From Pseudomonadota bacterium (GTDB lineage Bacteria; Myxococcota_A; Polyangia; Polyangiales; Polyangiaceae): a stretch of 32,000 nt of DNA. How positions within the stretch are numbered: position 1 is the stretch's first letter; every line of letters begins with the position of its first letter. A program made the position numbers and the translations under genes. The stretch covers positions 1 to 32,000 of the forward strand of contig JAFAER010000267.1 of NCBI GenBank assembly GCA_023423895.1, read 5' to 3'. The notes beneath the pieces are model-generated. The model was not told the origin of the DNA. It saw only the letters and a program-made list of their open reading frames with translations, and searched no databases. This document shows, piece by piece, positions 5,829-14,164 of the stretch.

Positions 5829-5899
5829 TCCGGAGGAGGGAATTGCACCCCCACCCCAGCGGTTCAAAGCCGCGGATCCTGCTGTTGGAACACTCCGGA
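5829..5899 (-). tRNA. tRNA-Gln(UUG), G55 T-loop variant
   Basis: Acceptor UCCGGAG/CUCCGGA (7 bp), anticodon loop CUUUGAA, T arm GGGGG-UGCAAUU-CCCUC. Confidence 0.6.
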
Positions 5900-5925
5900 A
5901 TGGGTGGCTCAGCGAGTGAGCCGGT

Positions 5926-5993
5926 CGCTGCGGGCAGAGTCGAACTGCCTGGACCGCGCTCATGAGGCGCGCCCTCCTCCGAGGACCGCAGCG
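5926..5993 (-). tRNA. tRNA-Met(CAU) type, short D arm (68 nt)
   Basis: Acceptor CGCUGCG/CGCAGCG, anticodon arm CGCGC-CUCAUGA-GCGCG, T arm GGCAG-UUCGACU-CUGCC. The D arm is reduced to UCC-UCGGA-GGA. Confidence 0.6.
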
Positions 5994-6038
5994 GAGGTCC
6001 GCGCTCGACGTGTGCACGTGCGTGCGTGCTGGGCGAGA

Positions 6039-6108
6039 GCGGTGACCGAGAATCGCACTCGGATCTCGAGCGTGGCGTGCTCGGGTTCTGCTCTTGAACT
6101 ATCACCGC
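6039..6108 (-). tRNA. tRNA-Gly(GCC), G55 T-loop variant
   Basis: Acceptor GCGGUGA/UCACCGC, D arm GUUC-AAGAGCA-GAAC, anticodon arm CGAGC-ACGCCAC-GCUCG (C33), T arm CCGAG-UGCGAUU-CUCGG. Confidence 0.6.
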
Positions 6109-6137
6109 AGGATCGGGCCACGTGGAACCCGCGTCGA

Positions 6138-6210
6138 GCCGCCCGAGGGAATTGCACCCTCCTCGTTCCTCGCTACCAGTGAGGTGCCCCGCTGTCTGGG
6201 CGTGGGCGGC
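6138..6210 (-). tRNA. tRNA-Thr(GGU), G55 T-loop variant
   Basis: Acceptor GCCGCCC/GGGCGGC, D arm GCCC-AGACAGCG-GGGC, anticodon loop CUGGUAG, T arm GAGGG-UGCAAUU-CCCUC. Confidence 0.6.
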
Positions 6211-6223
6211 ACGTGAAATAGTC

Positions 6224-6270
6224 GCTCGTCCTCGAGTCATTGCCTCACGAGGCCCCTCGTGAGGACGAGC
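6224..6270 (-). terminator. composite hairpin in the rsr 3' region (terminator or processing structure)
   Basis: Plus-strand gctcgtcctc (6224-6233) pairs with gaggacgagc (6261-6270), enclosing the inner stem acgagg/cctcgt. On the minus strand it lies ~70 nt after the rsr stop and is followed by GACUAUUUCACGU. Confidence 0.3.
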
Positions 6271-6341
6271 AGGTCGACGGCAACGAGGGACGTGCGGTCG
6301 ACATGACCGCCACGGGCATTTGCCGTAGGTTCGAGAGCCGA

Positions 6342-7955
6342 TCACACGGCGATTGACTCGATCGCCTGGAGAAACGCCGCTCCGTCCGCGTCGTCGCTCG
6401 CGAAGGAGGCGACGAGGTCGAAGACGGCATCGGAGAAACCTCCGACGTTCAACACGTCGGAGCGGGTCTGCACTTGCGTCGTCGCGTACGGTTGGAGGTC
6501 CACGAGAACGAGCTTCGCGCGCGGGTTGCTCGCGCGGAGTCGGTCCCACTCCTCCGCCATCACGGTTCCGCGCGTCGCGCTGCTGCCGGAGTCGGCGGAG
6601 CGCGGCGCCAGCCTGAAGTCAGCCCAGGACTGGTTGTCGGAGACAAAGACGACCACGTCGGGCGCGGTTCCACGAGCGTTGAGCCACCGTAGCGGCGCAG
6701 CGCACGAGGTCCCGCCGCTCGGGAGCGACGACAGCAACTCGGCATTGGTGACGACCGAGTCGAGTGCGTTCAGCGGACGCGGAAGCTGCACGACGTCGTC
6801 CGAGAAGGGCAGCACCGTCGCGTGCTCGTTCTTGCGAAGGAGCGCGGCGGTCGCCAGCGCGGCGACGTCGATGCAGCGGACCTTCGAGGTGGCCGTCCCT
6901 CGATGGCCTGTGACGGGCGAGTGCATCGACCCGGAGACGTCGGGACAGAGCGCAACGGAGCCCGGGATCGCGGGCACGTTGCCGACGGCGTGCTCGACGG
7001 CGCGAGCCAGCGCGCTGACGATTACCGGCGGCATGCTCTGCTCGACGGCGCGATACGTTGCGAGCAGCTGATACGGGAGCGTGCGCGAGCGCCTCACGGC
7101 GTCGGCGTCCGAGAGCTGCTCGGCGACGAGCTCGACGATCGCGGGGTCGGTGAAGACGCCGTGACGGTAGAGCGTGTTCAGATTTTGGCGGAGCTGGTTG
7201 AACGTCATCTTCTTCGCCAGCTCGGTCCAGTGCGCCGCGCGCAGAGGGAGAGCGGTAAGCATCTCGAACGGCACGTCGGGCAGCGGCTTCCGATCGTTCT
7301 TCTTCCAGGCCTCGAAGGCCTGGGTGAGCGGCGGCAGCTTCGAGCAGTCCACGTTCTTTCCGATGAGGTAGCCGTAGAGGGCCTCACGGACGGCATCGGC
7401 TTCGCCCTTCCCCCCGACGGCGTTCCGCGGGGGAGGACGAACCATCTTGATGACGTCCGACATGGACGGGCTCTGACCGATGGACTGGCGGAAGATGGTC
7501 TCGGGGCTCCTTGCTGCGAACCATTCGCGGAGAGCCCGTTTGGGCGCCGACCCGAACGACTTGCGGCCGGTGACTCCAGAACGGACGATCGCGACGAACG
7601 CACGCAACATCCGCGCATCGTCGATGACGCGCGGGAACACGCGGAGCATGAGCGAGACGTCGTGGGCGGCGAGCCAGGCGACGAGGAACGCGGGGACGTC
7701 CTTCATCCTGCCGTGCTCACGACAGTAGACAGCCGTCTTCGCGACGAGCTCGGGGCGGACGGCGCTCGCGAGCTCCGCGACCTTGTCGAGCTGCTGCTGA
7801 CCGGTCGCGTAGAACGTGCGATGGAACGTCCCGGTCACCGCATACTGCGCGAGCGCATGCTCGGGCGAGAGCGCGTATGCCGGACCTCCGGCCTCGTTGC
7901 GAGCATCGGCCACGGGCGCTTTGCGTGCGTGACCAAAAAGATGTGTGTTCGGCAT
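6342..7955 (-). CDS. rsr: Ro60 ortholog: TROVE domain plus vWA domain with MIDAS motif
   Basis: 537 aa. The N-terminal region is typical of TROVE/Ro60 (NEAGGPAYALSPEHALAQYAVTGTFHRTFYA). The C-terminal vWA has a DVSGSM MIDAS-like motif. AAGGAG Shine-Dalgarno sits 6 nt upstream of the ATG. Confidence 0.85.
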   Translation of the reverse strand: MPNTHLFGHARKAPVADARNEAGGPAYALSPEHALAQYAVTGTFHRTFYATGQQQLDKVAELASAVRPELVAKTAVYCREHGRMKDVPAFLVAWLAAHDVSLMLRVFPRVIDDARMLRAFVAIVRSGVTGRKSFGSAPKRALREWFAARSPETIFRQSIGQSPSMSDVIKMVRPPPRNAVGGKGEADAVREALYGYLIGKNVDCSKLPPLTQAFEAWKKNDRKPLPDVPFEMLTALPLRAAHWTELAKKMTFNQLRQNLNTLYRHGVFTDPAIVELVAEQLSDADAVRRSRTLPYQLLATYRAVEQSMPPVIVSALARAVEHAVGNVPAIPGSVALCPDVSGSMHSPVTGHRGTATSKVRCIDVAALATAALLRKNEHATVLPFSDDVVQLPRPLNALDSVVTNAELLSSLPSGGTSCAAPLRWLNARGTAPDVVVFVSDNQSWADFRLAPRSADSGSSATRGTVMAEEWDRLRASNPRAKLVLVDLQPYATTQVQTRSDVLNVGGFSDAVFDLVASFASDDADGAAFLQAIESIAV

Positions 7956-8050
7956 GACGACTCCTTTCCGAGCGAGGGCGTGTTCGGCCGTGCGCGTGCT
8001 CGAGCGCGCGACCGTGTGATTCCGGTCGATGAATGAACGAGAGACGAGGC

Positions 8051-8123
8051 GTTCCCGACGGGATTCGAACCCGTGTTCCTGGATTGAGAGCCCAGAGTCC
8101 TTGGCCGCCTAGACGACGGGAAC
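8051..8123 (-). tRNA. tRNA-Glu(CUC)
   Basis: Acceptor GUUCCCG/CGGGAAC, D arm GUC-UAGGCGGCCAAG-GAC, anticodon arm CUGGG-CUCUCAA-UCCAG, T arm ACGGG-UUCGAAU-CCCGU. Confidence 0.85.
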
Positions 8124-8135
8124 AGTGGAGATGAA

Positions 8136-8262
8136 GGTCGTCCGAGTGACTCGAGCATCGGTGTTGACTTGGGAATCGAACCCAAACCGTCAGCCTGGAA
8201 AGCTGATGTCCTGACCATTTGGACGAGTCGAGTGCGTGTGAGCTCGGGTCGAGCGGACGACC
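8136..8262 (-). ncRNA. stem-clamped tRNA-like RNA (unit 0), Y-RNA-like candidate
   Basis: A perfect 9-bp closing helix GGUCGUCCG (8262-8254) / CGGACGACC (8144-8136). Next comes a 3x3 internal loop (CUC vs ACU), then helix 2 GACCCGAGC/GCUCGAGUC (8 of 9 bp) and an ACACGCA linker. The stem encloses D, anticodon (UCC) and T arms but no proper acceptor stem. Confidence 0.55.
8162..8233 (-). tRNA. tRNA-Gly(UCC)-like core of unit 0 (acceptor stem degenerate)
   Basis: D arm GUCC-AAAUGGUCA-GGAC, anticodon arm UCAGC-UUUCCAG-GCUGA, T arm UUGGG-UUCGAUU-CCCAA. Only 3-4 of 7 acceptor positions can pair. Confidence 0.4.
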
Positions 8263-8266
8263 TGGA

Positions 8267-8337
8267 TGCAGCGGCTGGAGTCGCACCAGCGTCTCGAGCG
8301 TATGAAGCTCGCGGGGTGGCTCCTCCCCCACGCTGCG
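8267..8337 (-). tRNA. tRNA-Met(CAU) type with C1xA72 mismatch, G55 T-loop variant
   Basis: 5' strand CGCAGCG vs 3' strand CGCUGCA (C1/A72 unpaired, an initiator-like feature). D arm GGGG-AGGAGCCA-CCCC, anticodon arm CGAGC-UUCAUAC-GCUCG, T arm GCUGG-UGCGACU-CCAGC. CCA is encoded. Confidence 0.65.
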
Positions 8338-8382
8338 ATGACGCTCCGAAGCCGAGAGCAGTGCTCTCGGTCTCCAGAGGGC

Positions 8383-8453
8383 ACCTCCGCCGGGAGTCGA
8401 ACCCGGGAGAACGAGCTTCGGATGCTCGACCCTGATTCCGTCAGGACGAAGGT
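8383..8453 (-). tRNA. tRNA-Arg(CCG)
   Basis: Acceptor ACCUUCG/CGGAGGU (one G-U), anticodon arm CGAGC-AUCCGAA-GCUCG, T arm CCGGG-UUCGACU-CCCGG. Confidence 0.75.
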
Positions 8454-8484
8454 AGATGATGGAGACAGATGCTGAATGTTTGGC

Positions 8485-8555
8485 CTCCCCGCTAGGAATC
8501 GAACCTAGACAACCGGCTTCGTAGACCGATGCATGGAATCCACCACGACGAGGAG
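8485..8555 (-). tRNA. tRNA-Arg(ACG)
   Basis: Acceptor CUCCUCG/CGGGGAG, anticodon arm UCGGU-CUACGAA-GCCGG, T arm CUAGG-UUCGAUU-CCUAG. CCA is encoded. Confidence 0.75.
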
Positions 8556-8576
8556 AAACGAAAATCGAGCGACAGA

Positions 8577-8664
8577 GGAAGAAAGAGGTCTCGAACCCCA
8601 CACCCTCGGTGAAGGGTGCGCTTTGCTTTCGAAGCAAGCCTGGCTCCCAGCCAGTTTTTCTCCC
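8577..8664 (-). tRNA. tRNA-Ser(CGA), class II
   Basis: Acceptor GGGAGAA/UUCUUCC, D arm CUGG-CUGGGAG-CCAG, anticodon arm CUUGC-UUCGAAA-GCAAA, long variable hairpin CACCCU-UCACCG-AGGGUG, T-loop UUCGAGA. Confidence 0.7.
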
Positions 8665-8671
8665 GAGAAGT

Positions 8672-8743
8672 GGTCGGTGAGGGAATCGAACCCCCTACGC
8701 AGAGCTTTTCAAACTCCCGCTCTACCATTCGAGCTTACCGACC
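8672..8743 (-). tRNA. tRNA-Phe(GAA)
   Basis: Acceptor GGUCGGU/ACCGACC, D arm GCUC-GAAUGGUA-GAGC, anticodon arm GGAGU-UUGAAAA-GCUCU, T arm GGGGG-UUCGAUU-CCCUC. Confidence 0.9.
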
Positions 8744-8752
8744 CTGTGACAC

Positions 8753-8790
8753 CGTTGGCGCGTTGCGCCCCGTTGCGCCTCGTTGCGCGT
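8753..8790. repeat. four tandem copies of CGTTG(C/G)CG at 8-10-bp spacing in a tRNA spacer
   Basis: cgttggcg cgttgcgc cc cgttgcgc ct cgttgcgc, read directly between tRNA-Phe and tRNA-Ser(GGA). Confidence 0.7.
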
Positions 8791-8815
8791 CGCGGACACG
8801 TCAGGGCCGCGGAGA

Positions 8816-8902
8816 GGAAGGCAGAGGACTCGAACCCCACGCGGACGATGGCCGCGCGAATCGCGTTCCAGACGATCTCCGCCCCTGGCGGATTTGCCTT
8901 CC
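8816..8902 (-). tRNA. tRNA-Ser(GGA), class II
   Basis: Acceptor GGAAGGC/GCCUUCC, anticodon arm AUCGU-CUGGAAC-GCGAU, variable hairpin CGCGG..CCGCG, T-loop UUCGAGU. Confidence 0.75.
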
Positions 8903-8955
8903 GTGTTCGTGTATCGATTCGTTCGAGCTCGCACGGCGTGCGGAACGAGCGCGGT

Positions 8956-9029
8956 CAGGACGGCAGGATTCGAACCTGCGGTCTCCAGTCCCCCAGACTG
9001 GCGCTTTTGCCTGGCTAAGCTACGCCCTG
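8956..9029 (-). tRNA. tRNA-Pro(GGG)
   Basis: Acceptor CAGGGCG/CGUCCUG (C1-G72), D arm GCUU-AGCCAGGCAA-AAGC, anticodon arm CCAGU-CUGGGGG-ACUGG, T arm GCAGG-UUCGAAU-CCUGC. Confidence 0.85.
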
Positions 9030-9077
9030 AGATGCCGGCGCGTGACGGCTTCGTGAATGGGTGGATGTCGCGCGAGG

Positions 9078-9114
9078 CGAGAAGAATAGGAGGTCCAGTT
9101 TCACGTCTTGGACC
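9078..9114 (-). terminator. candidate intrinsic terminator after the HNH gene
   Basis: Minus-strand hairpin GGUCCA-(11 nt)-UGGACC followed by UCCUAUUCUUCU. A second 8-bp hairpin (GUCGUGGC/GCCACGAC) lies just upstream. Confidence 0.35.
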
Positions 9115-9170
9115 AGGACGCGGGAGCGTGTGTCGTGGCGCGGGCCACGACGCATCGATGCGTCGACGTC

Positions 9171-9773
9171 TCAGGCAGAGAGCGAAGCCGGCGCAGTGTA
9201 GCCGTCGCAGTACGGCTGCCAGACATCCGGCAGCTCACTCTCGTCGAGACGGATCGGCGGCACGACGGGCAGCGAGGTCGGCTTCTTCGGCTGCCGCAGC
9301 AGCTTCATGCCGGCCTGCTCAGGCGTGCGGCTCCCCTTGCGATCATTGCAGGCGTAGCAGGAGGTCACGATGTTCTCCCAGACGGTCTTGCCTCCCCGAA
9401 CACGCGGGATGACGTGGTCGTAGTTCAGTTGCTTCATCGGCTTCTTCTCGCCGCAGTACTGGCAACGGAACTTGTCCCGCGTGAACACGTTCAACCGGGA
9501 GAAGCGGACCGACTGCTTCGTCGACACCGACCCCTTCTTCAGGCGGACGACGGCGGGGGCGAGCATCGCGAAGCTCGGGGCGCGGAGCTCCGCGTCCCAG
9601 GTCTCGATGACTTCGACCTTGTCGAGGTAAGCCAGCACGACGGCGCGCTGCCAGGGAATGATCTTGTGAGGCGCCATCCAGGGGGTCAGCATCAGCGTTT
9701 GCATGGGGATCACCGTTTCTTTCTCGTTCTCACGGCTCGTTCTCCTTTCGGAGGTGTTGAAGGAGTCGTGCAC
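9171..9773 (-). CDS. HNH endonuclease (COG1403-like, ~180 aa class)
   Basis: CQYCG..(N)LNYDHVIPRVRGGKTVWENIVTSCYACNDRKG is a classic HNH/zinc-ribbon core. The N-terminal MQTLMLTPWMAPHKIIPWQRAV matches the usual start of this family, so ATG 9704 is the likelier start. Confidence 0.85.
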   Translation of the reverse strand: MHDSFNTSERRTSRENEKETVIPMQTLMLTPWMAPHKIIPWQRAVVLAYLDKVEVIETWDAELRAPSFAMLAPAVVRLKKGSVSTKQSVRFSRLNVFTRDKFRCQYCGEKKPMKQLNYDHVIPRVRGGKTVWENIVTSCYACNDRKGSRTPEQAGMKLLRQPKKPTSLPVVPPIRLDESELPDVWQPYCDGYTAPASLSA

Positions 9774-9847
9774 GATGCACGACGACAGAAGCGCAAAGGG
9801 ATGGACGTGTGACCGGACGCTGAGGCGGCGCGTGGATGGCGCGCAGT

Positions 9848-9931
9848 GTCACCGGAGGGAGTCGAACCCTCAAACTCCATGCGGAGCCCAGCATCTCGGG
9901 CTGGTGTGTATTCCAATTCCACCACAGTGAC
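9848..9931 (-). tRNA. tRNA-Leu(GAG), class II
   Basis: Acceptor GUCACUG/CGGUGAC, anticodon arm CCAGC-CCGAGAU-GCUGG (C33), variable hairpin CUCC-GCAU-GGAG, T arm GAGGG-UUCGACU-CCCUC. Confidence 0.75.
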
Positions 9932-9998
9932 GTATTCGCGTGACGTATCGCGTCCGGTCGCTCCCGGCGGATGGCCGAGGTGCGATGGGGACGTTGGT

Positions 9999-10073
9999 AC
10001 CGACGGAGGGATTCGAACCCTCACAACACACAGTTTCTGAGACTGCGGCCTCTACCAGTTGGGCCACGTCGGC
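9999..10073 (-). tRNA. class-I-sized tRNA-like gene with CAG (Leu-type) anticodon
   Basis: Acceptor GCCGACG/CGUCGGU, anticodon arm GCAGU-CUCAGAA-ACUGU, 7-nt variable region GUGUUGU (no long arm), T arm GAGGG-UUCGAAU-CCCUC. The D stem is imperfect. CCA is encoded. Confidence 0.5.
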
Positions 10074-10117
10074 TCGAGGCGTGCTCCGCGTCCGCTCGAG
10101 GCGTGCGCGTGCGTGGT

Positions 10118-10191
10118 CTGTGCAGGAGGATTCGAACCTCCAATCCCTCCGACCCGAACGGAGTGCTCTAGCCAGGTTGAGCCATGCACAG
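10118..10191 (-). tRNA. tRNA-Pro(CGG)
   Basis: Acceptor CUGUGCA/UGCACAG, D arm GCUC-AACCUGGCUA-GAGC, anticodon arm CUCCG-UUCGGGU-CGGAG, T arm GGAGG-UUCGAAU-CCUCC. CCA is encoded. Confidence 0.9.
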
Positions 10192-10233
10192 AGGACCAGC
10201 GAAGCCCGACGGGAGCTCGAGCGTGGCTGGGGT

Positions 10234-10303
10234 GGACAAGTCGGGAGTCGCACCCGATCCATCTGCTTGCAAGGCAGACGTCTCCCCTCGGAGACAAGCC
10301 CGT
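10234..10303 (-). tRNA. tRNA-Ala(UGC)-like element with no pairable acceptor stem
   Basis: Anticodon arm UCUGC-CUUGCAA-GCAGA and T arm UCGGG-UGCGACU-CCCGA are clear. The D region is a 6-bp hairpin GUCUCC-GAGG-GGAGAC. The two ends carry the same-sense GACAAG instead of complementary strands. The right boundary is approximate. Confidence 0.35.
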
Positions 10304-10354
10304 GATGATGATGACGGCGGTCCGTCGCTGGAATCGCAGCGGTCCGTGCCCGGT

Positions 10355-10426
10355 GCGGCGCGCAGGGATCGCACCTGCCTCCTCCTGCTCGTCATGCAGG
10401 CGCAGTCGCTAGACTGCCAGCGCCGC
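10355..10426 (-). tRNA. tRNA-Val(GAC), G55 T-loop variant
   Basis: Acceptor GCGGCGC/GCGCCGC, D arm GCAG-UCUAGCGA-CUGC, anticodon arm CCUGC-AUGACGA-GCAGG, T arm GCAGG-UGCGAUC-CCUGC. Confidence 0.8.
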
Positions 10427-10489
10427 TCTCGCTGTTCGACCCCAGGGTGCAAACGTGCACACGTTTGTACGTCTGTCCCTCGCGTCGGT

Positions 10490-10561
10490 GGATCACCTGC
10501 GAATCGAACGCAGTGCGGGCTCCTTATCAGAGAGTCCAGGGTGACCAACCCGTCGTGATCC
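10490..10561 (-). tRNA. tRNA-Ile(GAU)
   Basis: Acceptor GGAUCAC/GUGAUCC, anticodon loop CUGAUAA on stem CUCU/GGAG, T arm CUGCG-UUCGAUU-CGCAG. Confidence 0.7.
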
Positions 10562-10603
10562 CGTGCTCCGTAGAGCTCGCGTTGCTGCCCGAGCGACGCG
10601 GGA

Positions 10604-10671
10604 GAGCCGAGAGGGAGTTGAACCCTCGCGCACCGTGTTGCAGACGGCGATCCTCGCCGGAGAATCGGCTC
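10604..10671 (-). tRNA. tRNA-Cys(GCA)
   Basis: Acceptor GAGCCGA/UCGGCUC, short D arm, anticodon arm GCCGU-CUGCAAC-ACGGU, T arm GAGGG-UUCAACU-CCCUC. Confidence 0.7.
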
Positions 10672-10738
10672 GAAGAAGTGGGCGCAGTTCCTCGTGGGCC
10701 GACGTCACGTGAGCGTCGGCGGTGGGGGGCTGCGCGGA

Positions 10739-10808
10739 GCGGGCAGAGGGAGTCGCACCCTCATTGTCAGTTTGGAAGACTGCGGTCCTGCTGTTGGACG
10801 ATGCCCGC
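10739..10808 (-). tRNA. tRNA-Gly(UCC), G55 T-loop variant
   Basis: Acceptor GCGGGCA/UGCCCGC, D arm GUCC-AACAGCA-GGAC, anticodon loop CUUCCAA, T arm GAGGG-UGCGACU-CCCUC. Confidence 0.75.
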
Positions 10809-11241
10809 GAGTGGTGGTGGTGTGTGAATGGTGTGGCCGGAGATGGGGGAGCAAAAGTGGGGATGCGGTTCCGAAATCGCAAGTCTCGACGAAGGTGATG
10901 AAGACATGGTGCTCGGCGGCGGATCGCTGCCTCTGCACCGTCGGCACATTGGAGCCGCCCGTGAGGGCTGCTCCCGTTCGCCCCGCAATAGGGAAGTTCA
11001 CCGAAGTGGTCTCCCGAGAGCGCCCGGCTGGAGTCTGCGGGGCGCTCTCTGACTTCCCCTATGCCATCGCTAGATCGGTCGCCCGACCGTCGCTACCTTA
11101 GGACCGTTATAGTTACGGATGTAGTCCTCATCGGCATTCGAGACCGACGACGCTTGCTCGTGTCGTGTGAGATCCTTCTTGGTGTGCGGACGACGTCGCG
11201 TACGACGACGTCGTCGAAGTGAATGGATGAAGGTGGTTGGT
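10809..11241 (-). ncRNA. structured non-tRNA insert in the array (candidate ncRNA containing a 23S rRNA H69-H71-like segment)
   Basis: No tRNA fits. There is a three-way structure at 10988-11062: AUAGGGGAAGU/ACUUCCCUAU closing GAGAGCGCCC/GGGCGCUCUC and a CAC-UUCG-GUG hairpin. A T-arm-like hairpin UCGGU-CUCGAAU-GCCGA lies at 11131-11147, plus the rRNA-identical 29-mer. Orientation is assumed from the surrounding array. Confidence 0.4.
11090..11118 (-). other. 29-nt perfect copy of the conserved 23S rRNA helix 69/70 segment (contains the I-CeuI homing site)
   Basis: Minus strand reads CCGUAACUAUAACGGUCCUAAGGUAGCGA. From memory this is identical to E. coli 23S about 1908-1936 (H69 loop with U1911/1915/1917) and includes TAACTATAACGGTCCTAAGGTAGCGA. 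The downstream GUCGGG..GACC..GAUGGC loosely echoes H71. Confidence 0.75.
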
Positions 11242-11313
11242 GGAGCCGGCCGGACTCGCACCGGCAGCCTCCTCGATGCCATCGAGGCGCTCTCCTCGCT
11301 GAGCTACGGCCCC
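11242..11313 (-). tRNA. tRNA-Ala(GGC), G55 T-loop variant
   Basis: Acceptor GGGGCCG/CGGCUCC with G3-U70, D arm GCUC-AGCGAGGA-GAGC, anticodon arm CCUCG-AUGGCAU-CGAGG, T arm GCCGG-UGCGAGU-CCGGC. CCA is encoded. Confidence 0.8.
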
Positions 11314-11353
11314 GTTCGTTTCGTGGCGTGGTCTTACTGTTCTATGCGCGGGT

Positions 11354-11423
11354 GGAGCGACGGGGAATCGCACCCCGATCCCTGCAGTGCGAATGCAGCG
11401 TTCTCCTGTTGAACTATCGCCCC
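11354..11423 (-). tRNA. tRNA-Ala(CGC), G55 T-loop variant
   Basis: Acceptor GGGGCGA/UCGCUCC with G3-U70, D arm GUUC-AACAGGA-GAAC, anticodon arm CUGCA-UUCGCAC-UGCAG, T arm CGGGG-UGCGAUU-CCCCG. Confidence 0.8.
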
Positions 11424-11480
11424 GTGCCATGATCCGTTCGTCGACGGCGACACGACGTTCATGACGAGAATGGGAGGGGC

Positions 11481-11550
11481 AGGCCGCGAAGGAATCGAAC
11501 CCTCTCTCCGGGGGTTGGAATCCCGGCTGGTCGCCATGACTCTACGGCCT
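11481..11550 (-). tRNA. tRNA-Trp(CCA) (alternative reading Gly-UCC)
   Basis: Acceptor AGGCCGU/GCGGCCU with A1-U72 and G73. The best anticodon-arm fold is CGGGA-UUCCAAC-CCCCG (A31xC39). T arm GAGGG-UUCGAUU-CCUUC. Confidence 0.6.
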
Positions 11551-11595
11551 ATCTTGTGTGCGGGAACATGGGGATGGCGATCCCTCGACGTTGGC

Positions 11596-11666
11596 GACCC
11601 ATACCGAAATCGAATCGGTCTCACGCCGTAGACAGCGGCGCTGCGACACCAGTCGCATCATGGGCC
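11596..11666 (-). tRNA. tRNA-Asp(GUC)
   Basis: Acceptor GGCCCAU/AUGGGUC, anticodon arm CGCCG-CUGUCUA-CGGCG, T arm ACCGA-UUCGAUU-UCGGU. The D region is a GCGAC-UGGU-GUCGC hairpin. CCA is encoded. Confidence 0.75.
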
Positions 11667-11702
11667 AGAAGCTCTGGAACCTTGGTACTTCTTCTTGCGG
11701 GC

Positions 11703-11773
11703 GTCCCCGGCAGGAGTCGAACCTGCGTCGGCTGGTTTAGAAGACCAGCGCCTATCCGCTCGGCCACGAGGAC
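11703..11773 (-). tRNA. tRNA-Arg(UCU)
   Basis: Acceptor GUCCUCG/CGGGGAC, anticodon arm CUGGU-CUUCUAA-ACCAG, T arm GCAGG-UUCGACU-CCUGC. Close paralog of the next gene. Confidence 0.85.
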
Positions 11774-11810
11774 GTGCGGTCAGCGACGGCGGCCGAAGCG
11801 TGGTGTGGGC

Positions 11811-11881
11811 GTCCCCGGCAGGAATCGAACCTGCGTCGACCGGCTCAGGAGACCGGAGCCTGTCCGCTCGGCCACGAGGAC
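11811..11881 (-). tRNA. tRNA-Arg(CCU)
   Basis: Same acceptor and D arm as the previous gene. Anticodon arm CCGGU-CUCCUGA-GCCGG, T arm GCAGG-UUCGAUU-CCUGC. Confidence 0.85.
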
Positions 11882-11928
11882 CAGACCATGCGTTGACCGA
11901 GAGCCGAGCGAGGTGACGCGCGGCCGGG

Positions 11929-12000
11929 GTAGCGTACGGGAATCGCACCCGCCTCCACTGAGTCACAATCAGTCCTCGTCACTAGACGAGTAACGCTACC
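11929..12000 (-). tRNA. tRNA-His(GUG) with encoded G-1, G55 T-loop variant
   Basis: Acceptor GUAGCGU/ACGCUAC preceded by G(-1) opposite C73. D arm CUCG-UCUAGUGA-CGAG, anticodon arm ACUGA-UUGUGAC-UCAGU, T arm GCGGG-UGCGAUU-CCCGU. Confidence 0.85.
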
Positions 12001-12086
12001 GTGTATTCTTGTGCTCATCGAGGTTGTTCGTGTCAACCCGCCTTTGGAGCGAATCGTTCGCTTTCGATGATTGTCGATTGGTTGGT

Positions 12087-12157
12087 GCTCCCGATCGGAA
12101 TCGAACCGATACCTTCCGCTTGAAAGGCGGAGATCCTGACCACTAGATGACGGGAGC
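12087..12157 (-). tRNA. tRNA-Glu(UUC)
   Basis: Acceptor GCUCCCG/CGGGAGC, anticodon arm UCCGC-CUUUCAA-GCGGA, T arm AUCGG-UUCGAUU-CCGAU. CCA is encoded. Confidence 0.85.
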
Positions 12158-12407
12158 GAGGAATGAAGCGAGCCCCGGACGAGCCGAGGGATGTCGTCGC
12201 AGGCGCTCGCGCTTTCGGCTCGTTGGCCGAAGGGCGAGCTTCGGGCGGCACCGGTCACGCGCGAGCGAACGAGAGCGCGCGCCGGTACGGAAGAGGAGCG
12301 CCTCGTCGGACGCGGGCCCGCGAGGCGTGGAGCTCAGATGTGAGCTCGGCAAGCTCGCCGGCGTCGGGGAGAGGTGTGTGGGACCGACGCGCGAGCTGCT
12401 GGAGAGG

Positions 12408-12623
12408 TTTCTCACCCGAGTGAAAAAGCCTTTGGATTGAACCATCTTCAAGGATGAGGCCTTTACCAATTAGGCTATCGCTGCATTTGGTCCGGTCGTG
12501 ACCGGGCGCTCTCGTATGAGAGCCGACGATGGACGTCGCGGTGACGAGCACCGTGTGCAGCGAGTCGGATTCGAACCGACAATTTCTCGATTGCGTGTAG
12601 GGCATCTTCGGGCGGGTGAGAAA
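12408..12623 (-). ncRNA. circularly permuted tRNA-like RNA, unit 1 (YrlA/Y-RNA-like candidate)
   Basis: Minus strand read 5'->3'. Closing strand UUUCUCACCCG (12623-12613), CCC, helix-2 strand GAAGAUGCC, then CUACACGCAAU linker. T arm GUCGG-UUCGAAU-CCGAC (12580-12564), acceptor 3' strand UCGCUGC (12563-12557), and a 72-nt hairpin-rich cap. Acceptor 5' strand GCAGCGA (12484-12478), D arm GCC-UAAUUGGUAAA-GGC, hairpin UCAUC-CUUGAA-GAUGG. It ends GGCUUUUUC, ACU, closing strand CGGGUGAGAAA (12418-12408). Confidence 0.6.
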
Positions 12624-12726
12624 GATCGTGGGCGCTCGAGCCAAGCTCAGCGGAGCGGCGAGCGGCGAAGGCGAAGGCGAGCTCGGGACGATGACGGAGG
12701 AGCCCGCGTCCGAGCGCGGCGTGGGT

Positions 12727-12803
12727 CCCTCGTGATGGAATCGAACCACCTGCCGAAAGGCACCGGGTTACAGCCGGCTGCTCCGCCATGGAGCGAACGA
12801 GGG
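12727..12803 (-). tRNA. tRNA-Tyr(GUA), class II
   Basis: Acceptor CCCUCGU/ACGAGGG, D arm GCUC-CAUGGCG-GAGC, anticodon arm GCCGG-CUGUAAC-CCGGU, variable hairpin GCC-UUUC-GGC, T arm GGUGG-UUCGAUU-CCAUC. Confidence 0.85.
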
Positions 12804-12822
12804 AGGACGAGGGATGAGAGGG

Positions 12823-12989
12823 ATCACCCGAGTGGGAAAGCCGTCATTCGTCTGAAAGGACGAGCGCCTTGACCATTAGGCTACGCTGGAAGGAGTAGTA
12901 GCGCGTGGGCTCGAGCGAGCTCGAGGTTCCAGCGGTCGGAATCGAACCGACGTCTCTCATTGCGTGTAGGGCCTTCGCGGCCGGGTGAT
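12823..12989 (-). ncRNA. circularly permuted tRNA-like RNA, unit 2 (YrlA/Y-RNA-like candidate)
   Basis: Minus strand read 5'->3'. Closing AUCACCCG (12989-12982), GCCGC, GAAGGCC, CUACACGCAAU linker. T arm GUCGG-UUCGAUU-CCGAC (12951-12935), acceptor 3' strand CGCUGGA (12934-12928) followed by ACC, then a 37-nt cap with the CUCGAG-CUCG-CUCGAG hairpin. Acceptor 5' strand UCCAGCG (12890-12884), D arm GCC-UAAUGGUCAA-GGC, hairpin UCGUC-CUUUCA-GACGA. It ends GGCUUUC, CCACU, CGGGUGAU (12830-12823). Confidence 0.6.
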
Positions 12990-12992
12990 GGA

Positions 12993-13063
12993 GCCCACGT
13001 CCGGAATCGAACCGGATCCTCCCGTGTACGAGGCGGGCGCTCGGCCAGTCGAGCTGCGCGGGC
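12993..13063 (-). tRNA. tRNA-Thr(CGU)
   Basis: Acceptor GCCCGCG/CGUGGGC, D arm GCUC-GACUGGCC-GAGC, anticodon arm CCCGC-CUCGUAC-ACGGG (C31xA39), T arm UCCGG-UUCGAUU-CCGGA. CCA is encoded. Confidence 0.75.
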
Positions 13064-13205
13064 AAAAGGCCGTACGTCATCCCGGTACGGCGGACGGGCG
13101 AAGTGAAACCGCGAGGGTCCCACGGAAAAAGGTGCTCGCGGTGCGCGCGGCGCTCTCGAGAGGAGAGCGCGCACGCCGGCGCGCGCGGGGGAAAGTCGAG
13201 AGGAG

Positions 13206-13362
13206 GCTCGTCCGAGTGAAGAGAGCCTTGCGATGTGCTCGTGTGCGAAACGAGTGCCTTTTCCGTTTGGCTGGCGGCCCTTTGCCTTTCGGCGAGGTGG
13301 ACCACGTTGGATTCGAACCAACATGTCGTGCGTGTGTGGCCTGTTCGAACGGACGAACGAGC
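13206..13362 (-). ncRNA. circularly permuted tRNA-Ala-like RNA, unit 3 (YrlA/Y-RNA-like candidate)
   Basis: Minus strand read 5'->3'. Closing UCGUCCG (13356-13350), UUC, GAACAGGCC, ACACACGCA linker. T arm GUUGG-UUCGAAU-CCAAC (13322-13306), acceptor 3' strand GUGGUCC (13305-13299) followed by ACC, then an 18-nt cap GCC-GAAA-GGC. Acceptor 5' strand GGGCCGC (13280-13274, giving G3-U70), D arm GCC-AAACGGAAAA-GGC, anticodon arm CUCGU-UUCGCAC-ACGAG (CGC). It ends GGCUCUCUUC, ACU, CGGACGA (13214-13208). Confidence 0.6.
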
Positions 13363-13433
13363 TCCAGCGGAAGGAATCGAACCTTCGAATGACCGGTTAA
13401 CAGCCGGCTGCCTGACCATTCGGCTTCGCTGGA
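13363..13433 (-). tRNA. tRNA-Asn(GUU)
   Basis: Acceptor UCCAGCG/CGCUGGA (identical to the unit 2 acceptor), anticodon arm GCCGG-CUGUUAA-CCGGU, T arm GAAGG-UUCGAUU-CCUUC. Confidence 0.85.
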
Positions 13434-13587
13434 ATGTGTGCTCGTCGCGTCCGTGCGTGCTGCTGCCGTCTCGGCGAATCCGATCTCTTCCGAGGCGGGA
13501 CGACGAAGCGGTCAGCGCGCACGGACGCGACGAGCTTTTTGGCGCCAAGTTGTCAGAGAGCGAGGGACGTCGTGAGACGTCCGCGGT

Positions 13588-13657
13588 TCCGGGCACAGGA
13601 TTCGAACCTGTCTTCCTGGATTCAGAGACCAGTGTCCTGCCGCTAGACGAGCCCGGA
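13588..13657 (-). tRNA. tRNA-Gln(CUG)
   Basis: Acceptor UCCGGGC/GCCCGGA (U1-A72), D arm GUC-UAGCGGCAG-GAC, anticodon loop CUCUGAA, T arm ACAGG-UUCGAAU-CCUGU. Confidence 0.75.
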
Positions 13658-13716
13658 GCAGGAGCGGCGTGCCGAAGGCGCACGTCGCCTGTGGCCGCGT
13701 CCTTCGACGCGGCGGT

Positions 13717-13788
13717 AGGTCCGGAGGGGGTCGAACCCTCACCACCCCGATTAAGAGTCGGGTGCGCTTCCACTTGCGCTACGGACCC
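13717..13788 (-). tRNA. tRNA-Lys(CUU)
   Basis: Acceptor GGGUCCG/CGGACCU, D arm GCGC-AAGUGGAA-GCGC, anticodon arm CCCGA-CUCUUAA-UCGGG, T arm GAGGG-UUCGACC-CCCUC. Confidence 0.85.
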
Positions 13789-14092
13789 GTGACGAGAAGC
13801 GCGCGTTGCTGTTCGTGTCGGAAAGAGCGAGCGCGCCTTCGGTATTGCTTGGGCGCGCCCGACGGTCATGTCGCGTGCAAGCCGGATCCGCATGAGGATC
13901 CCGCGATGCAGCGACGTCGCCGAGTCGAAGACGAGGACGTCGAGGACCATGGGGGTCGAGCCACGCGTCGTGACCGATGCTCGGTGACGAGCGAGAGAGG
14001 GGTAGGGGAGAGAGTCGAGTCGCGAAAAGACGAGCGTGGTGTGCGCCGCCGCGACGCCAGCGACGTGTCTGCCGGCGCGCGGCGCAGGGGGG

Positions 14093-14164
14093 GGGGCGCG
14101 AGGGGGTCGAACCCTCATCCCTCGGCTTAAAAGGCCGGTGCTCGGCCGATTGAGCTAGCGCCCC
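14093..14164 (-). tRNA. tRNA-Lys(UUU), first gene of the array
   Basis: Acceptor GGGGCGC/GCGCCCC, D arm GCUC-AAUCGGCC-GAGC, anticodon loop CUUUUAA, T arm GAGGG-UUCGACC-CCCUC. Confidence 0.8.

What the first reader, a model, noticed from the sequence alone, without database searches (positions are those of the whole stretch)
12408..13362. Three circularly permuted tRNA mimics closed by a covarying bipartite stem: candidate YrlA-type Y RNAs
In three units the T arm plus 3' acceptor strand lie upstream (in transcript sense) of the matching 5' acceptor strand, D arm and anticodon-like hairpin. The 7-bp acceptor pairings are perfect or G-U only: GCAGCGA/UCGCUGC, UCCAGCG/CGCUGGA, GGGCCGC/GUGGUCC. 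The acceptor is capped by a variable hairpin insert of 72, 37 and 18 nt, the last a GAAA tetraloop.

The transcript ends pair in a long stem that keeps its structure while changing sequence. Closing helix: UUUCUCACCCG/CGGGUGAGAAA, AUCACCCG/CGGGUGAU, UCGUCCG/CGGACGA. Helix 2: GAAGAUGCC/GGCUUUUUC, GAAGGCC/GGCUUUC, GAACAGGCC/GGCUCUCUUC. The two helices are separated by an internal loop whose 3' side always ends ACU. An ACACGCA motif follows helix 2.

The order (stem strand, T arm, capped acceptor, D arm, stem strand) is the published architecture of bacterial YrlA Y RNAs, which bind Ro60, and an rsr gene lies 5 kb away. The novelties here are an extra anticodon-like hairpin, stem attachment at the variable-arm position, and embedding in a tRNA array.
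Basis: partly seen in the sequence, partly recalled or inferred. Interest (0 to 1): 0.9.

Follow-up and report, generated by a model that had tools for sequence, protein, structure and literature searches.

The report
Permuted tRNA-like Y RNAs beside rsr
Three small RNA genes inside a myxobacterial tRNA gene array encode complete but circularly rearranged tRNA look-alikes mounted on a conserved stem; they are most likely a new variant of the bacterial Y RNAs, which partner the Ro60 (Rsr) RNA quality-control protein encoded 4.5 kb away.

Summary
On the minus strand, three units (12408-12623, 12823-12989, 13207-13357) each read: closing helix, 3-nt loop, helix 2, ACACGCA linker, T arm, 3' acceptor strand, cap insert (72/37/18 nt), 5' acceptor strand, D arm, anticodon-like hairpin, helix 2, ACU, closing helix.

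They lie in a 34-tRNA array that also holds rsr (Ro60), all on one strand. I collected 36 homologues from related myxobacterial rsr loci, metagenomes and viral contigs. All six helices are 91% paired, and 35 of 38 pairs show compensatory changes. The tRNA tertiary pair 15:48 covaries.

Undoing the permutation in silico makes ARAGORN of 26 units as tRNAs, but the "anticodon" differs between positional orthologues, so they do not decode.

Twenty-two of 35 acceptor caps begin N-CC(A). This predicts RNase P cleavage and a CCA end, as shown for Mycobacterium smegmatis YrlA.

Rfam's YrlA model scores only 18.7 bits against a cut-off of 69, and canonical YrlAs lack the anticodon arm. So this is a new variant of a known kind, not a new class. 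Rsr binding and the RNA ends remain untested.

In passing, I found two more Y-RNA-like elements in the window. One carries 29 nt identical to 23S rRNA around helix 69.

The parts
12408..12623 (-). Unit A, permuted tRNA-like Y RNA candidate. Closing helix 12613-12623 with 12408-12418. Helix 2 12601-12609 with 12422-12430. CU-ACACGCA linker 12581-12600. T arm 12564-12580. 3' acceptor strand 12557-12563. Cap insert 12485-12556 (72 nt, starts ACAC). 5' acceptor strand 12478-12484. D arm 12459-12475. Anticodon-like hairpin 12442-12457 (6-nt loop CUUGAA).
   Evidence: Sequence. RNAfold z = -5.5. R1 covariance model 134.4 bits. Coordinates.
12823..12989 (-). Unit B. Closing helix 12982-12989 with 12823-12830. 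Helix 2 12970-12978 with 12834-12842. ACACGCA linker 12952-12969. T arm 12935-12951. 3' acceptor strand 12928-12934. Cap insert 12891-12927 (37 nt, starts ACCU). 5' acceptor strand 12884-12890. D arm 12866-12881. Anticodon-like hairpin 12848-12864. The first base, A12989, is also the last A of the CCA of tRNA-Thr.
   Evidence: (128.7 bits). Weak Rfam YrlA hit on the T/acceptor/D core, 18.7 bits.
13207..13357 (-). Unit C. Closing helix 13350-13357 with 13207-13214. Helix 2 13338-13346 with 13218-13226. ACACGCA linker 13323-13337. T arm 13306-13322. 3' acceptor strand 13299-13305. Cap insert 13281-13298 (18 nt, ACCU..GCC-GAAA-GGC). 5' acceptor strand 13274-13280 (G3:U70). D arm 13256-13271. Anticodon-like hairpin 13238-13254 (7-nt loop UUCGCAC). 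It starts 4 nt after the 3' end of tRNA-Asn.
   Evidence: (128.3 bits). The un-permuted sequence is called tRNA-Ala(CGC) by ARAGORN.
6342..7955 (-). rsr, the Ro60 orthologue (537 aa), inside the tRNA array on the same strand. It is the presumed protein partner.
   Evidence: Pfam vWA_Ro60 8.7e-15 and TROVE 8.5e-8. More than 6000 homologues; the closest named ones are Labilithrix and Polyangiaceae.
5658..14164 (-). tRNA array of 34 ARAGORN calls, one of which is really element D. It contains rsr, an HNH endonuclease gene and all the Y-RNA-like elements. It is probably one or a few polycistronic transcripts.
   Evidence: The array is syntenic in L001-L004, L201 and L204-L206.
8137..8261 (-). Element D, a fourth member of the stem family. 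It has the same closing helix / CUC / helix 2 / UC-ACACGCA ... ACU / closing helix. Its tRNA-like domain is in normal order (D arm, anticodon arm, T arm) with a degenerate acceptor. ARAGORN mis-calls it tRNA-Gly(UCC).
   Evidence: R1 44.5 bits through the stems. Fold z = -3.2. The orthologue at L001 9574-9697 is called tRNA-Asp.

Best explanation
The three units are genes for Y RNAs of the YrlA type, noncoding RNAs that bind Rsr (bacterial Ro60). They belong to a previously unmodelled subfamily.

Proposed mechanism:
1. Inferred: they are transcribed with the surrounding tRNAs and rsr from the minus strand, and are released when RNase P and the 3'-end enzymes process the flanking tRNAs.
2. Shown by covariation for the structure, inferred for the binding: the two ends of each RNA pair into an 8-bp closing helix, a small internal loop (NYC opposite an invariant ACU) and a 9-bp helix 2. 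This conserved module is the likely Rsr-binding site.
3. Shown at sequence level: the interior folds as a complete, circularly permuted tRNA. The acceptor stacks on the T arm, and the D arm is followed by a 5-bp anticodon-like hairpin. U8, A14, G18-G19, the UUCGAAU T loop and a covarying 15:48 pair are all present. The Rsr stem emerges at the variable-arm position.
4. Inferred from the conserved N-CC(A) directly after the 3' acceptor strand and the 7-bp acceptor, with the M. smegmatis YrlA precedent: RNase P cuts at the 5' acceptor strand, the cap insert is trimmed, and a CCA end is completed. This gives a two-piece RNA held together by the acceptor and the Rsr stem.
5. Inferred by analogy with D. 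radiodurans and Salmonella: the tRNA-shaped module stabilises the RNA or tethers Rsr to a tRNA-recognising partner such as PNPase, for surveillance of structured RNA. It does not decode.
For: Context:
- rsr lies 4.45 kb downstream on the same strand, inside the same array.
- Homologous units occur upstream of rsr on the same strand in L001-L004, L201, L205 and L206.

Structure:
- On a MAFFT alignment not fitted to the structure, 91.4% of cells are paired and 23 of 38 pairs have compensatory changes. Slid controls give 32-48%.
- RNAalifold finds the same six helices de novo.
- With 36 members, 91.0% of cells are paired and 35 of 38 pairs are compensatory. No shuffle out of 500 reaches this. There are 57 G-U cells, so the structure is specific to this strand.

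tRNA-like fold:
- The 15:48 pair is A:U 12 times and G:C 7 times out of 26.
- ARAGORN of 26 un-permuted units as tRNAs.

Not decoders:
- There are 20 different 'anticodons' among the 32 seven-nucleotide loops, and the loop is 6 nt in unit A and in one register of unit B.
- Positional orthologues of unit C read CGC, CGU, CGU and AUU.

Link to YrlA:
- Rfam YrlA aligns the T/acceptor/D core of unit B.
- The R1 model hits canonical YrlAs beside rsr in Acidobacteria, Verrucomicrobia, Planctomycetes (Schlesneria) and Nannocystis at 30-45 bits over its full length. Rfam separately confirms canonical YrlAs beside rsr in Neisseria (L066) and Comamonas (L067).
- The CUAC(A) motif is shared with canonical YrlAs.

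The stem is the shared module:
- The same stem carries a non-permuted tRNA-like domain in element D, and non-tRNA interiors in L001 at 9327-9470 and 9708-9816.

Processing:
- 22 of 35 caps start N-CC, 10 of them NCCA, against about 3 expected by chance.
- M. smegmatis YrlA has a 7-bp acceptor, is cleaved by RNase P and gains CCA in vivo. Yrn1 and Yrn2 are co-transcribed with tRNA-Asp (PMC4201824).
Against: - There is no expression, end-mapping or Rsr-binding evidence.
- The Rfam YrlA score is far below its cut-off (18.7 against 69).
- The published 5' motif GNCGAAN0-1G is matched only loosely, as G-NN-CGA(A/G). CGA is present in about 19 of 27 members and CGAA in about 10.
- Members in viral and metagenomic fragments show no rsr within the 2-14 kb that could be read. 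The 17 viral rsr loci that were found carry no such units.
- The tRNA-like module has features that published YrlAs lack: an anticodon arm and the stem at the variable position.
- The function of any YrlA tRNA-like domain is itself unknown.
Confidence: 0.78

Rival explanations
1. These are tRNA-shaped RNAs that work without Rsr. They could be phage-derived decoys or baits for tRNA-targeting enzymes such as anticodon nucleases or modification enzymes, or stability and processing elements of the tRNA array. In that case the long stem would be an RNase III-type or protective stem rather than a Ro60 site.
For: - Family members sit in tRNA arrays on IMG/VR viral contigs and metagenome fragments where no rsr was found in the readable part.
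- The anticodon loops keep tRNA-like features (Y32 in 28, U33 in 26 and R37 in 29 of 32 loops) while the triplet varies widely.
- The Rfam YrlA threshold is not met.
Against: - In every long myxobacterial locus the units are on the rsr strand within a few kb of it.
- The stem architecture parallels canonical YrlA: helix, asymmetric loop, 9-bp helix, then CUACA.
- The invariant unpaired ACU and ACACGCA point to sequence-specific protein recognition, not generic double-stranded RNA.
- The readable viral fragments are short, so rsr may lie just outside them.
Confidence: 0.12
2. These are functional circularly permuted tRNA genes, as in the red alga Cyanidioschyzon merolae. The ends would be joined, the cap removed, and a decoding tRNA produced.
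For: - The 3' half precedes the 5' half.
- A complete cloverleaf is recovered after un-permutation.
- N73-CC(A) is encoded.
- Unit C has G3:U70, A73 and a CGC loop, like tRNA-Ala.
Against: - The anticodon is not conserved between positional orthologues. The L002 orthologue has A3:U70 and CGU.
- The loop is 6 nt in unit A and in one register of unit B.
- The 17-bp bipartite stem with conserved loop bases is not a bulge-helix-bulge motif, and it also flanks non-permuted and non-tRNA interiors.
- Bacteria lack the splicing endonuclease (established knowledge).
- 14 of 35 members have caps shorter than 8 nt, and 10 of those lack any CC.
- The array already supplies the matching isoacceptors.
Confidence: 0.03
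3. These are non-functional debris of tRNA array rearrangement. Fused fragments of neighbouring tRNAs would happen to place a T arm upstream of a D arm.
For: - Tandem tRNA junctions do mimic the T/acceptor/D core. This gave many partial hits (model positions 39-137) with the R1 model.
- The acceptor of unit B is identical to that of the nearby tRNA-Asn.
Against: - The two acceptor strands within a unit pair with each other and covary: all 7 pairs show compensatory changes.
- The flanking stem and its motifs are conserved across genomes with Rsr identity down to about 70% (Rsr of L206) and across viral contigs of 37-52% GC.
- Un-permuted units resemble each other (A to B 81%) more than any array tRNA (73% at most).
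Confidence: 0.02

Closest known systems
YrlA (Y RNA-like A; Rfam RF02553; Salmonella Typhimurium and more than 250 species; Chen et al. 2014, PMC4201824; structure in bioRxiv 10.1101/312249)
   Same: - Encoded next to rsr on its strand.
- The 5' and 3' ends pair into a bipartite stem.
- The interior reads T arm, acceptor stem-loop, D arm, that is, a circularly permuted tRNA-like domain.
- The YUAY (CUAC) motif lies after helix 2.
- The tRNA core nucleotides and 15:48 covariation are conserved.
   Different: - Canonical YrlA has no anticodon loop. Its Rsr stem continues from the anticodon-stem position, directly after the D arm.
- Here a separate 5-bp hairpin with a 7-nt loop follows the D arm, and the stem leaves from the variable region through 5-17-nt and 11-30-nt linkers.
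- The stem's internal loop is 3 x 3 (NYC/ACU), against about 5 x 7-8 in canonical YrlA.
- The motif is ACACGCA rather than CUACAU, and CGAAUGC is absent.
- The Rfam score is 18.7 bits against a cut-off of 69.
Mycobacterium smegmatis YrlA (PMC4201824)
   Same: It has a 7-bp acceptor stem capped by a loop. It is cleaved by RNase P in vitro, and in vivo is found as two Rsr-bound halves, the 5' half ending in a completed CCA. It is processed from one precursor with YrlB and rsr.
   Different: - Processing here is only predicted.
- There are three to five paralogues per locus rather than one.
- An anticodon arm is present.
Deinococcus radiodurans Yrn1 and Yrn2
   Same: - They are Y RNAs with tRNA-like features and a 5-bp 'anticodon arm' with a 6-nt loop.
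- Both strands of the Ro-binding helix are retained.
- They are co-transcribed with a tRNA (tRNA-Asp).
   Different: Yrn1 has the D-like and T arms in normal order with the anticodon arm between them. That matches element D of this window (8137-8261), not units A-C.
Two-piece tmRNA from circularly permuted ssrA genes (alpha-proteobacteria, cyanobacteria; from my own knowledge, not checked here)
   Same: The gene order places the 3' acceptor piece before the 5' acceptor piece. A loop capping the acceptor is excised to give a CCA end and a new 5' end. The RNA works as two base-paired pieces.
   Different: tmRNA carries a tag reading frame, is charged with alanine and acts on ribosomes. None of this is evident here.
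Circularly permuted tRNA genes of Cyanidioschyzon merolae (PMC3978253)
   Same: The 3' half lies upstream of the 5' half, the acceptor ends are joined by an intervening sequence, and the termini pair.
   Different: Those use a bulge-helix-bulge motif, the splicing endonuclease and a circular intermediate to make decoding tRNAs. Here the anticodons are not conserved and the stem is a conserved 17-bp module.

Membership tests
YrlA-type bacterial Y RNA | Encoded within a few kb of an rsr (Ro60/TROVE) gene on the same strand | tested here: met
   rsr is at 6342-7955 (-) and the units at 12408-13357 (-). The arrangement is the same in L001-L004, L201, L205 and L206.
YrlA-type bacterial Y RNA | Interior reads T arm, acceptor stem-loop, D arm, enclosed by pairing of the 5' and 3' ends | tested here: met
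   The Rfam YrlA model aligns this core in unit B.
YrlA-type bacterial Y RNA | tRNA core nucleotides and the tertiary 15:48 (Levitt) pair are conserved with covariation | tested here: met
   The T loop is UUCGAAU or UUCGAUU in the three window units and UUCGANU family-wide; GG is present in the D loop; UA is at positions 8-9 in most members. The 15:48 pair is A:U 12 times and G:C 7 times of 26.
YrlA-type bacterial Y RNA | GNCGAAN0-1G motif near the 5' end (presumed Rsr contact) | tested here: inconclusive
   The family has (C/U)CCG-NYC-GA(A/G). CGA is present in about 19 of 27 members and CGAA in about 10 of 27, with one extra base relative to the motif.
YrlA-type bacterial Y RNA | Conserved YUAY after the stem, at the start of the variable region | tested here: met
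   The sequence is CUAC / UUAC / AUAC + ACGCA in most members. Unit C has ACAC.
YrlA-type bacterial Y RNA | No anticodon loop; the Rsr stem occupies the anticodon-stem position | tested here: not met
   A 5-bp hairpin follows the D arm after 1-2 nt. Its loop is 7 nt in 32 of 35 members, and all 5 of its pairs show compensatory changes. Canonical YrlAs aligned to R1 delete it.
YrlA-type bacterial Y RNA | Reaches the Rfam RF02553 gathering score (69 bits) | tested here: not met
   18.7 bits, E = 0.9, unit B only. As a positive control, L066 scores 89.7 and L067 scores 71.5 bits.
YrlA-type bacterial Y RNA | Bound by Rsr in vivo | not testable with these tools
   This needs RIP or EMSA.
Circularly permuted (decoding) tRNA gene | A functional anticodon conserved between orthologues, with a 7-nt loop | tested here: not met
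   There are 20 different triplets. Orthologues differ. The loop is 6 nt in unit A, and in unit B in one register.
Circularly permuted (decoding) tRNA gene | Bulge-helix-bulge motif at the paired termini | tested here: not met
   The termini form an 8-bp helix, a 3 x 3 internal loop and a 9-bp helix.
tRNA (RF00005) | Contiguous cloverleaf detected by tRNA finders | tested here: not met
   ARAGORN and Rfam make no call on the genomic units. They are called only after in-silico un-permutation.
Yrn1-type Y RNA (D. radiodurans) | D-like arm, anticodon arm and T arm in normal order inside the Rsr stem | tested here: not met
   Units A-C are permuted. Element D (8137-8261) does meet this feature.

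The most novel reading that the evidence does not exclude
The array may encode a panel of Rsr-tethered mimics of the translation machinery's RNAs:
- complete tRNA cloverleaves, permuted or not, with diversified anticodon loops and maturable CCA ends;
- next to them, a Y-RNA-like element carrying an exact copy of 23S rRNA around helix 69.

Such a phage-related island could work in either of two ways. It could present baits that recruit Rsr and exonucleases to, or shield the cell from, enzymes that attack tRNA and rRNA (anticodon nucleases, ribotoxins). Or the two-piece RNAs could be aminoacylated (unit C has G3:U70 and A73) and act on ribosomes. Either would give the long-enigmatic tRNA-like domain of bacterial Y RNAs a concrete, testable role.
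Probability: 0.1. Interest if true: 0.85.

Novelty: new variant of a known kind. Interest (0 to 1): 0.62.

Why it matters
Bacterial Y RNAs are known tRNA mimics, but the purpose of the mimicry is unknown. The described YrlAs copy only the upper half of tRNA and usually have a closed acceptor.

This subfamily extends the mimicry to a full cloverleaf:
- It has an anticodon-loop-like hairpin.
- In about two thirds of members it has an encoded discriminator plus CC(A).
- It occurs as three to five paralogues per locus with different "anticodons".
- It sits inside a 30-35-tRNA array that also carries rsr and an HNH endonuclease. A related layout exists in Myxococcus phage Mx1 and on viral contigs.

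This has three consequences:
- It offers natural variation for asking which tRNA-recognising factors Y RNAs engage.
- It shows that current Rfam models and tRNA finders miss these RNAs, or mislabel them: element D is called tRNA-Gly.
- It links Ro60/Y RNA biology to tRNA arrays and phages.

Tried and rejected
- **Rfam.** At gathering and at E <= 10 the only hit was a weak partial YrlA match.
- **Metagenome scan.** The scan with ACACGCA-N-GGTTCGAWTCC mostly returned loci that score poorly with R1. By the uniform 28-nt match length these are probably ordinary tRNAs whose anticodon arm contains ACACGCA (my guess is tRNA-Val(CAC); not verified). Only 5 real members came from 120 loci.
- **Viral scan.** The scan with TACACGCAA... 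likewise returned mostly low-scoring, uniform-length matches (probably ordinary tRNAs; not verified), but gave 9-10 real members.
- **BLAST.** Unit B against GenBank phages gave no match.
- **Stem-geometry filter.** A filter without the ACACGCA motif is non-specific in this GC-rich DNA, with 22 hits per shuffled window, so I did not use it for counting.
- **Viral rsr loci.** Seventeen such loci carry no high-scoring units, and no rsr was found in the viral fragments that carry units. Co-occurrence outside the myxobacterial loci is therefore unresolved.
- **Promoters and terminators.** The sigma-70 scan found nothing, and the terminator-like sites are uninformative.
- **Pairing partner for ACACGCA.** I looked for pairing with the 3' linker, as the CUACAUNN segment has in canonical YrlA. 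None was found by eye.
- **Origin from array tRNAs.** I tested whether the units are recent copies of array tRNAs. They are not: identity is 73% at most, against 81% between A and B.
- **Literature.** The supplement of Chen 2014 and the 2020 Annual Review were not available, so I could not check whether any myxobacterial Y RNA was listed there.
Full report
**Context**

The window is high-GC bacterial chromosome (63-71% GC). Its housekeeping genes include a Ser/Thr kinase, FGE-sulfatase, M18 aminopeptidase, a ComM-like Mg-chelatase and RecA.

On the minus strand, ARAGORN finds 34 tRNA genes between 5658 and 14164. Inside this array, on the same strand, lie two protein genes:
- a 537-aa Ro60 orthologue (rsr, 6342-7955; Pfam vWA_Ro60 and TROVE);
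- an HNH endonuclease gene (9171-9773).

The closest Rsr homologues that carry names come from Labilithrix and Polyangiaceae MAGs, that is, myxobacteria. The array with rsr and HNH lies in the same chromosomal neighbourhood in related contigs (L201, L204-L206).

**The observation**

The exact coordinates come from a model-based alignment.

| Unit | Span | Acceptor pairing | Cap insert |
|---|---|---|---|
| A | 12408-12623 | GCAGCGA/UCGCUGC | 72 nt |
| B | 12823-12989 | UCCAGCG/CGCUGGA | 37 nt |
| C | 13207-13357 | GGGCCGC/GUGGUCC (two G-U) | 18 nt, with a GAAA-capped hairpin |

The 3' side of the internal loop is ACU in all three, and ACACGCA follows helix 2 in all three.

The pattern ACACGCA-N4-25-GGTTCGAWTCC occurs three times in the window against zero in 100 shuffles. 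RNAfold recovers the closing stems, with z-scores of -5.5, -1.7 and -2.0.

Two corrections are small. Helix 2 has a mismatch in A and a mismatch plus a bulge in C. The anticodon-like loop is 6 nt in A and 7 nt in C.

**Homologues and covariation**

I took 80 rsr loci from GTDB genomes. The sequence pattern found ten more units, all upstream of rsr on its strand, in the four closest loci (L001-L004).

A plain MAFFT alignment of 11 units (A4) supports six helices: closing helix 8 bp, helix 2 9 bp, T 5 bp, acceptor 7 bp, D 4 bp and anticodon-like 5 bp.
- 91.4% of cells are paired.
- 23 of 38 pairs have changes on both sides.
- No shuffle out of 500 does as well.
- Sliding the partner by 1-3 columns drops pairing to 32-48%.
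- RNAalifold predicts the same six helices with no input from me.

I built a covariance model from A4 (R1). With it I collected 36 members:
- more myxobacterial rsr loci fetched through Rsr homologues (L201, L205, L206);
- metagenome fragments (L128, L169, L123, L090);
- IMG/VR viral contigs (L287, L237, L282, L217, L298, L295, L299).

On these 36 members the structure is 91.0% paired, and 35 of 38 pairs show compensatory change. There are 57 G-U cells, which would be A-C mismatches on the other strand. This is an RNA structure on the strand of the tRNAs and rsr.

**A complete, permuted tRNA mimic**

The T loop is UUCGAAU or UUCGAUU in the three window units and UUCGANU family-wide. The D loop keeps GG, and positions 8-9 are mostly UA.

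The base before the T stem (position 48) covaries with D-loop position 15. The pair is A:U 12 times and G:C 7 times in 26 units. This is the same Levitt-pair covariation reported for YrlA (PMC4201824).

I removed the stem and the cap in silico and rejoined the halves in normal order. ARAGORN then called 22 of 26 units as tRNAs.

The anticodon-like loop is 7 nt in 32 of 35 members. Among those 32, Y32 is present in 28, U33 in 26 and R37 in 29. The triplet, however, takes 20 different values. It also differs between positional orthologues: the unit after tRNA-Asn reads CGC (window), CGU (L002, L004) and AUU (L001). Unit C has G3:U70 and A73, but its L002 orthologue has A3:U70.

These RNAs therefore do not decode. 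They keep the shape of the anticodon loop, not its identity. Un-permuted, the units resemble each other (A to B 81%) more than any tRNA of the array (73% at most).

**Relation to YrlA**

The published YrlA architecture has these parts: a 5'/3' stem with a GNCGAAN0-1G motif, YUAY, an optional V arm, a T arm, an acceptor stem-loop and a D arm. It is encoded within 4 kb of rsr on the same strand (PMC4201824). The crystal-structure paper describes most YrlAs as circularly permuted tRNAs with closed acceptor stems and no anticodon loop, with the Rsr module extending from the anticodon-stem position (bioRxiv 10.1101/312249).

How the two models behave:
- Rfam's YrlA model finds canonical YrlAs beside rsr in Neisseria (89.7 bits) and Comamonas (71.5 bits), so it serves as a working control.
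- On the window it gives only 18.7 bits on the T/acceptor/D core of unit B, against a cut-off of 69.
- My model R1 hits canonical YrlAs next to rsr in Acidobacteria, Verrucomicrobia, Planctomycetes (Schlesneria) and Nannocystis at 30-45 bits over its full length. In those alignments the anticodon hairpin is deleted and CUACAU replaces CUACACGCA.

The units are therefore relatives of YrlA that fail two defining features: the absence of an anticodon loop, and the curated score. They match the 5' motif only loosely, as G-NN-CGA(A/G). I file them as a new variant, not as members of RF02553.

**The stem is the common module**

The same stem is closing helix, NYC, helix 2, YN-ACACGCA ... ACU, closing helix. 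It encloses different interiors:
- In the window at 8137-8261 it encloses a tRNA-like domain in normal order (element D). ARAGORN calls this tRNA-Gly(UCC), and calls its L001 orthologue tRNA-Asp.
- In L001 it also encloses interiors that are not tRNA-like, at 9327-9470 and 9708-9816.

A conserved stem with invariant unpaired bases and interchangeable interiors is what a shared protein-binding module looks like. With rsr in the same transcription unit, Rsr is the obvious candidate. This step is inferred, not shown.

**Predicted maturation**

Of the 35 members with an acceptor, 22 have caps that begin N-CC: ACC in 14 of the 21 caps of 8 nt or more, and NCCA in 10 overall. The rest of each cap is unrelated in sequence and runs from 4 to 95 nt. 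Chance would give about three. In L090 the whole cap is ACCA. Fourteen members have caps shorter than 8 nt; ten of these lack the CC and resemble the closed loops of canonical YrlA.

M. smegmatis YrlA has a 7-bp acceptor. It is cut by RNase P in vitro, and in vivo it exists as two Rsr-bound halves, the 5' half carrying a completed CCA (PMC4201824). Units A (ACA...), B (ACC...) and C (ACC...) all have 7-bp acceptors, so I predict the same two-piece maturation.

Release from the array transcript is plausible. Unit C starts 4 nt after tRNA-Asn. The first base of unit B is the last A of the CCA of tRNA-Thr. D. radiodurans Yrn1 and Yrn2 are co-transcribed with tRNA-Asp.

**Rivals**

- Functional permuted tRNA genes are excluded by four observations: the non-conserved anticodons, the 6-nt loops, the closed-loop members, and the use of the same stem on non-permuted and non-tRNA interiors.
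- Rearrangement debris is excluded by covariation across genomes and across viral contigs of 37-52% GC.
- One rival remains. These could be tRNA-shaped RNAs that act without Rsr, because I could not show rsr on the viral and metagenomic fragments that carry members.

**Distribution and phage link**

The family occurs inside tRNA arrays on IMG/VR contigs. L287 has 29 tRNAs in 11.5 kb and a unit scoring 116.8 bits. L295 has 28 tRNAs.

Myxococcus phage Mx1 (OR576727) carries several of the same features:
- a TROVE protein 47% identical to the window's Rsr;
- HNH endonucleases, a tmRNA, and a tRNA array that begins about 4 kb upstream of the TROVE gene;
- a canonical-type YrlA-like RNA at the head of that array (Rfam 32 bits, R1 22.9 bits).

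So the association of Y RNA, rsr and a tRNA array is not unique to this window. It may have a phage origin.

**Verdict**

The RNAs form a new variant of a known kind. What sets them apart is a full cloverleaf with an anticodon arm, the stem at the variable-arm position, an encoded CCA behind a removable cap, and several paralogues per tRNA array. Rsr binding, the RNA ends and the function remain to be shown.

Noticed in passing
window 8137-8261 (-): A fourth element with the same ACACGCA/ACU stem. Its tRNA-like domain is in normal order (D arm, anticodon arm UCAGC-UUUCCAG-GCUGA, T arm), like D. radiodurans Yrn1. ARAGORN and Rfam call it tRNA-Gly(UCC), and call its L001 orthologue tRNA-Asp. It is probably a Y RNA mis-annotated as a tRNA.
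   Followed up: partly
window about 10876-11150 (-): A structured element of about 270 nt with a canonical YrlA-type stem (GGUCUCGA-AUGCC-GAUGAGGAC-UACAU ... GUCUUCAUC-ACCUUCG-UCGAGACU).
- It holds the only CGAAUGC...CUACA signature in the window.
- Its interior is not tRNA-like.
- Bases 11090-11118 are 29 nt 100% identical to E. coli 23S rRNA at about nt 1902-1930. This covers the helix 69 hairpin and the bases after it, and a helix-71-like hairpin follows.
- It is conserved in L201, L204, L205 and L005, and diverged in L206.
- It has no Rfam hit.

It may be an rRNA-mimicking Y RNA.
   Followed up: partly
window 9171-9773 (-): An HNH endonuclease gene (Pfam HNH_5 1.3e-17) sits inside the tRNA array between tRNA-Leu(GAG) and tRNA-Pro(GGG). 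An HNH gene is also called upstream of rsr in L201 and L204-L206; L001-L004 have a similar untyped gap in their tRNA arrays. Phage Mx1's tRNA array also carries HNH genes.
   Followed up: partly
window 5658-14164; L001-L013, L201-L206: A tRNA array of about 30-35 genes with rsr embedded is syntenic across Labilithrix and Polyangiaceae relatives. It sits in a fixed chromosomal neighbourhood, between RecA/ComM and the M18 peptidase, FGE-sulfatase and kinase genes. Several array tRNAs score low with Rfam (30-45 bits). I could not determine whether they are the cell's main tRNA set.
   Followed up: partly
L344 (Myxococcus phage Mx1, OR576727) 204-332, 1681-2058, 11950-13599: Phage Mx1 has an unannotated canonical-type YrlA-like RNA at the head of its tRNA array, a tmRNA (Rfam 117.7 bits) overlapping small annotated ORFs, and a TROVE protein 47% identical to the window's Rsr.
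   Followed up: partly
L001 9327-9470 and 9708-9816; L203 556-679 and 715-821; L205 9512-9655 and 9743-9868; L206 8566-8691: Further elements with the same stem module lie just upstream of rsr in relatives. For the two L001 elements, which I read directly, the interiors are plain hairpins rather than tRNA-like domains (YrlB-like); the interiors of the L203, L205 and L206 elements were not examined.
   Followed up: partly
window about 11590-11665 (-): A degenerate tRNA-Asp-like gene (acceptor GGCCCAU/AUGGGUC, loop CUGUCUA, encoded CCA) lies between tRNA-Arg(UCU) and tRNA-Trp. ARAGORN and Rfam both missed it. Relatives have a tRNA-Asp(GUC) near this position in the array.
   Followed up: no
window 12158-12407 (-): The 250-nt spacer between unit A and tRNA-Glu(UUC) shares sequence with the spacer after the orthologous unit in L002 (GAGCUUGCCGAGCUC.CAUCUGAGCUCCACGCC). 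It lacks the two extra units that L002 has there. Its function, if any, is unknown.
   Followed up: no
L075 (Nannocystis radixulma) 11675-12232: Four tandem YrlA-like copies lie directly downstream of rsr. This suggests that multi-copy Y RNA loci are common in myxobacteria.
   Followed up: no
L001 5467-6065: ARAGORN reports a permuted 'tmRNA*' overlapping tRNA-Ala(CGC) in the L001 array. This is probably a false positive caused by tandem tRNA-like elements.
   Followed up: no
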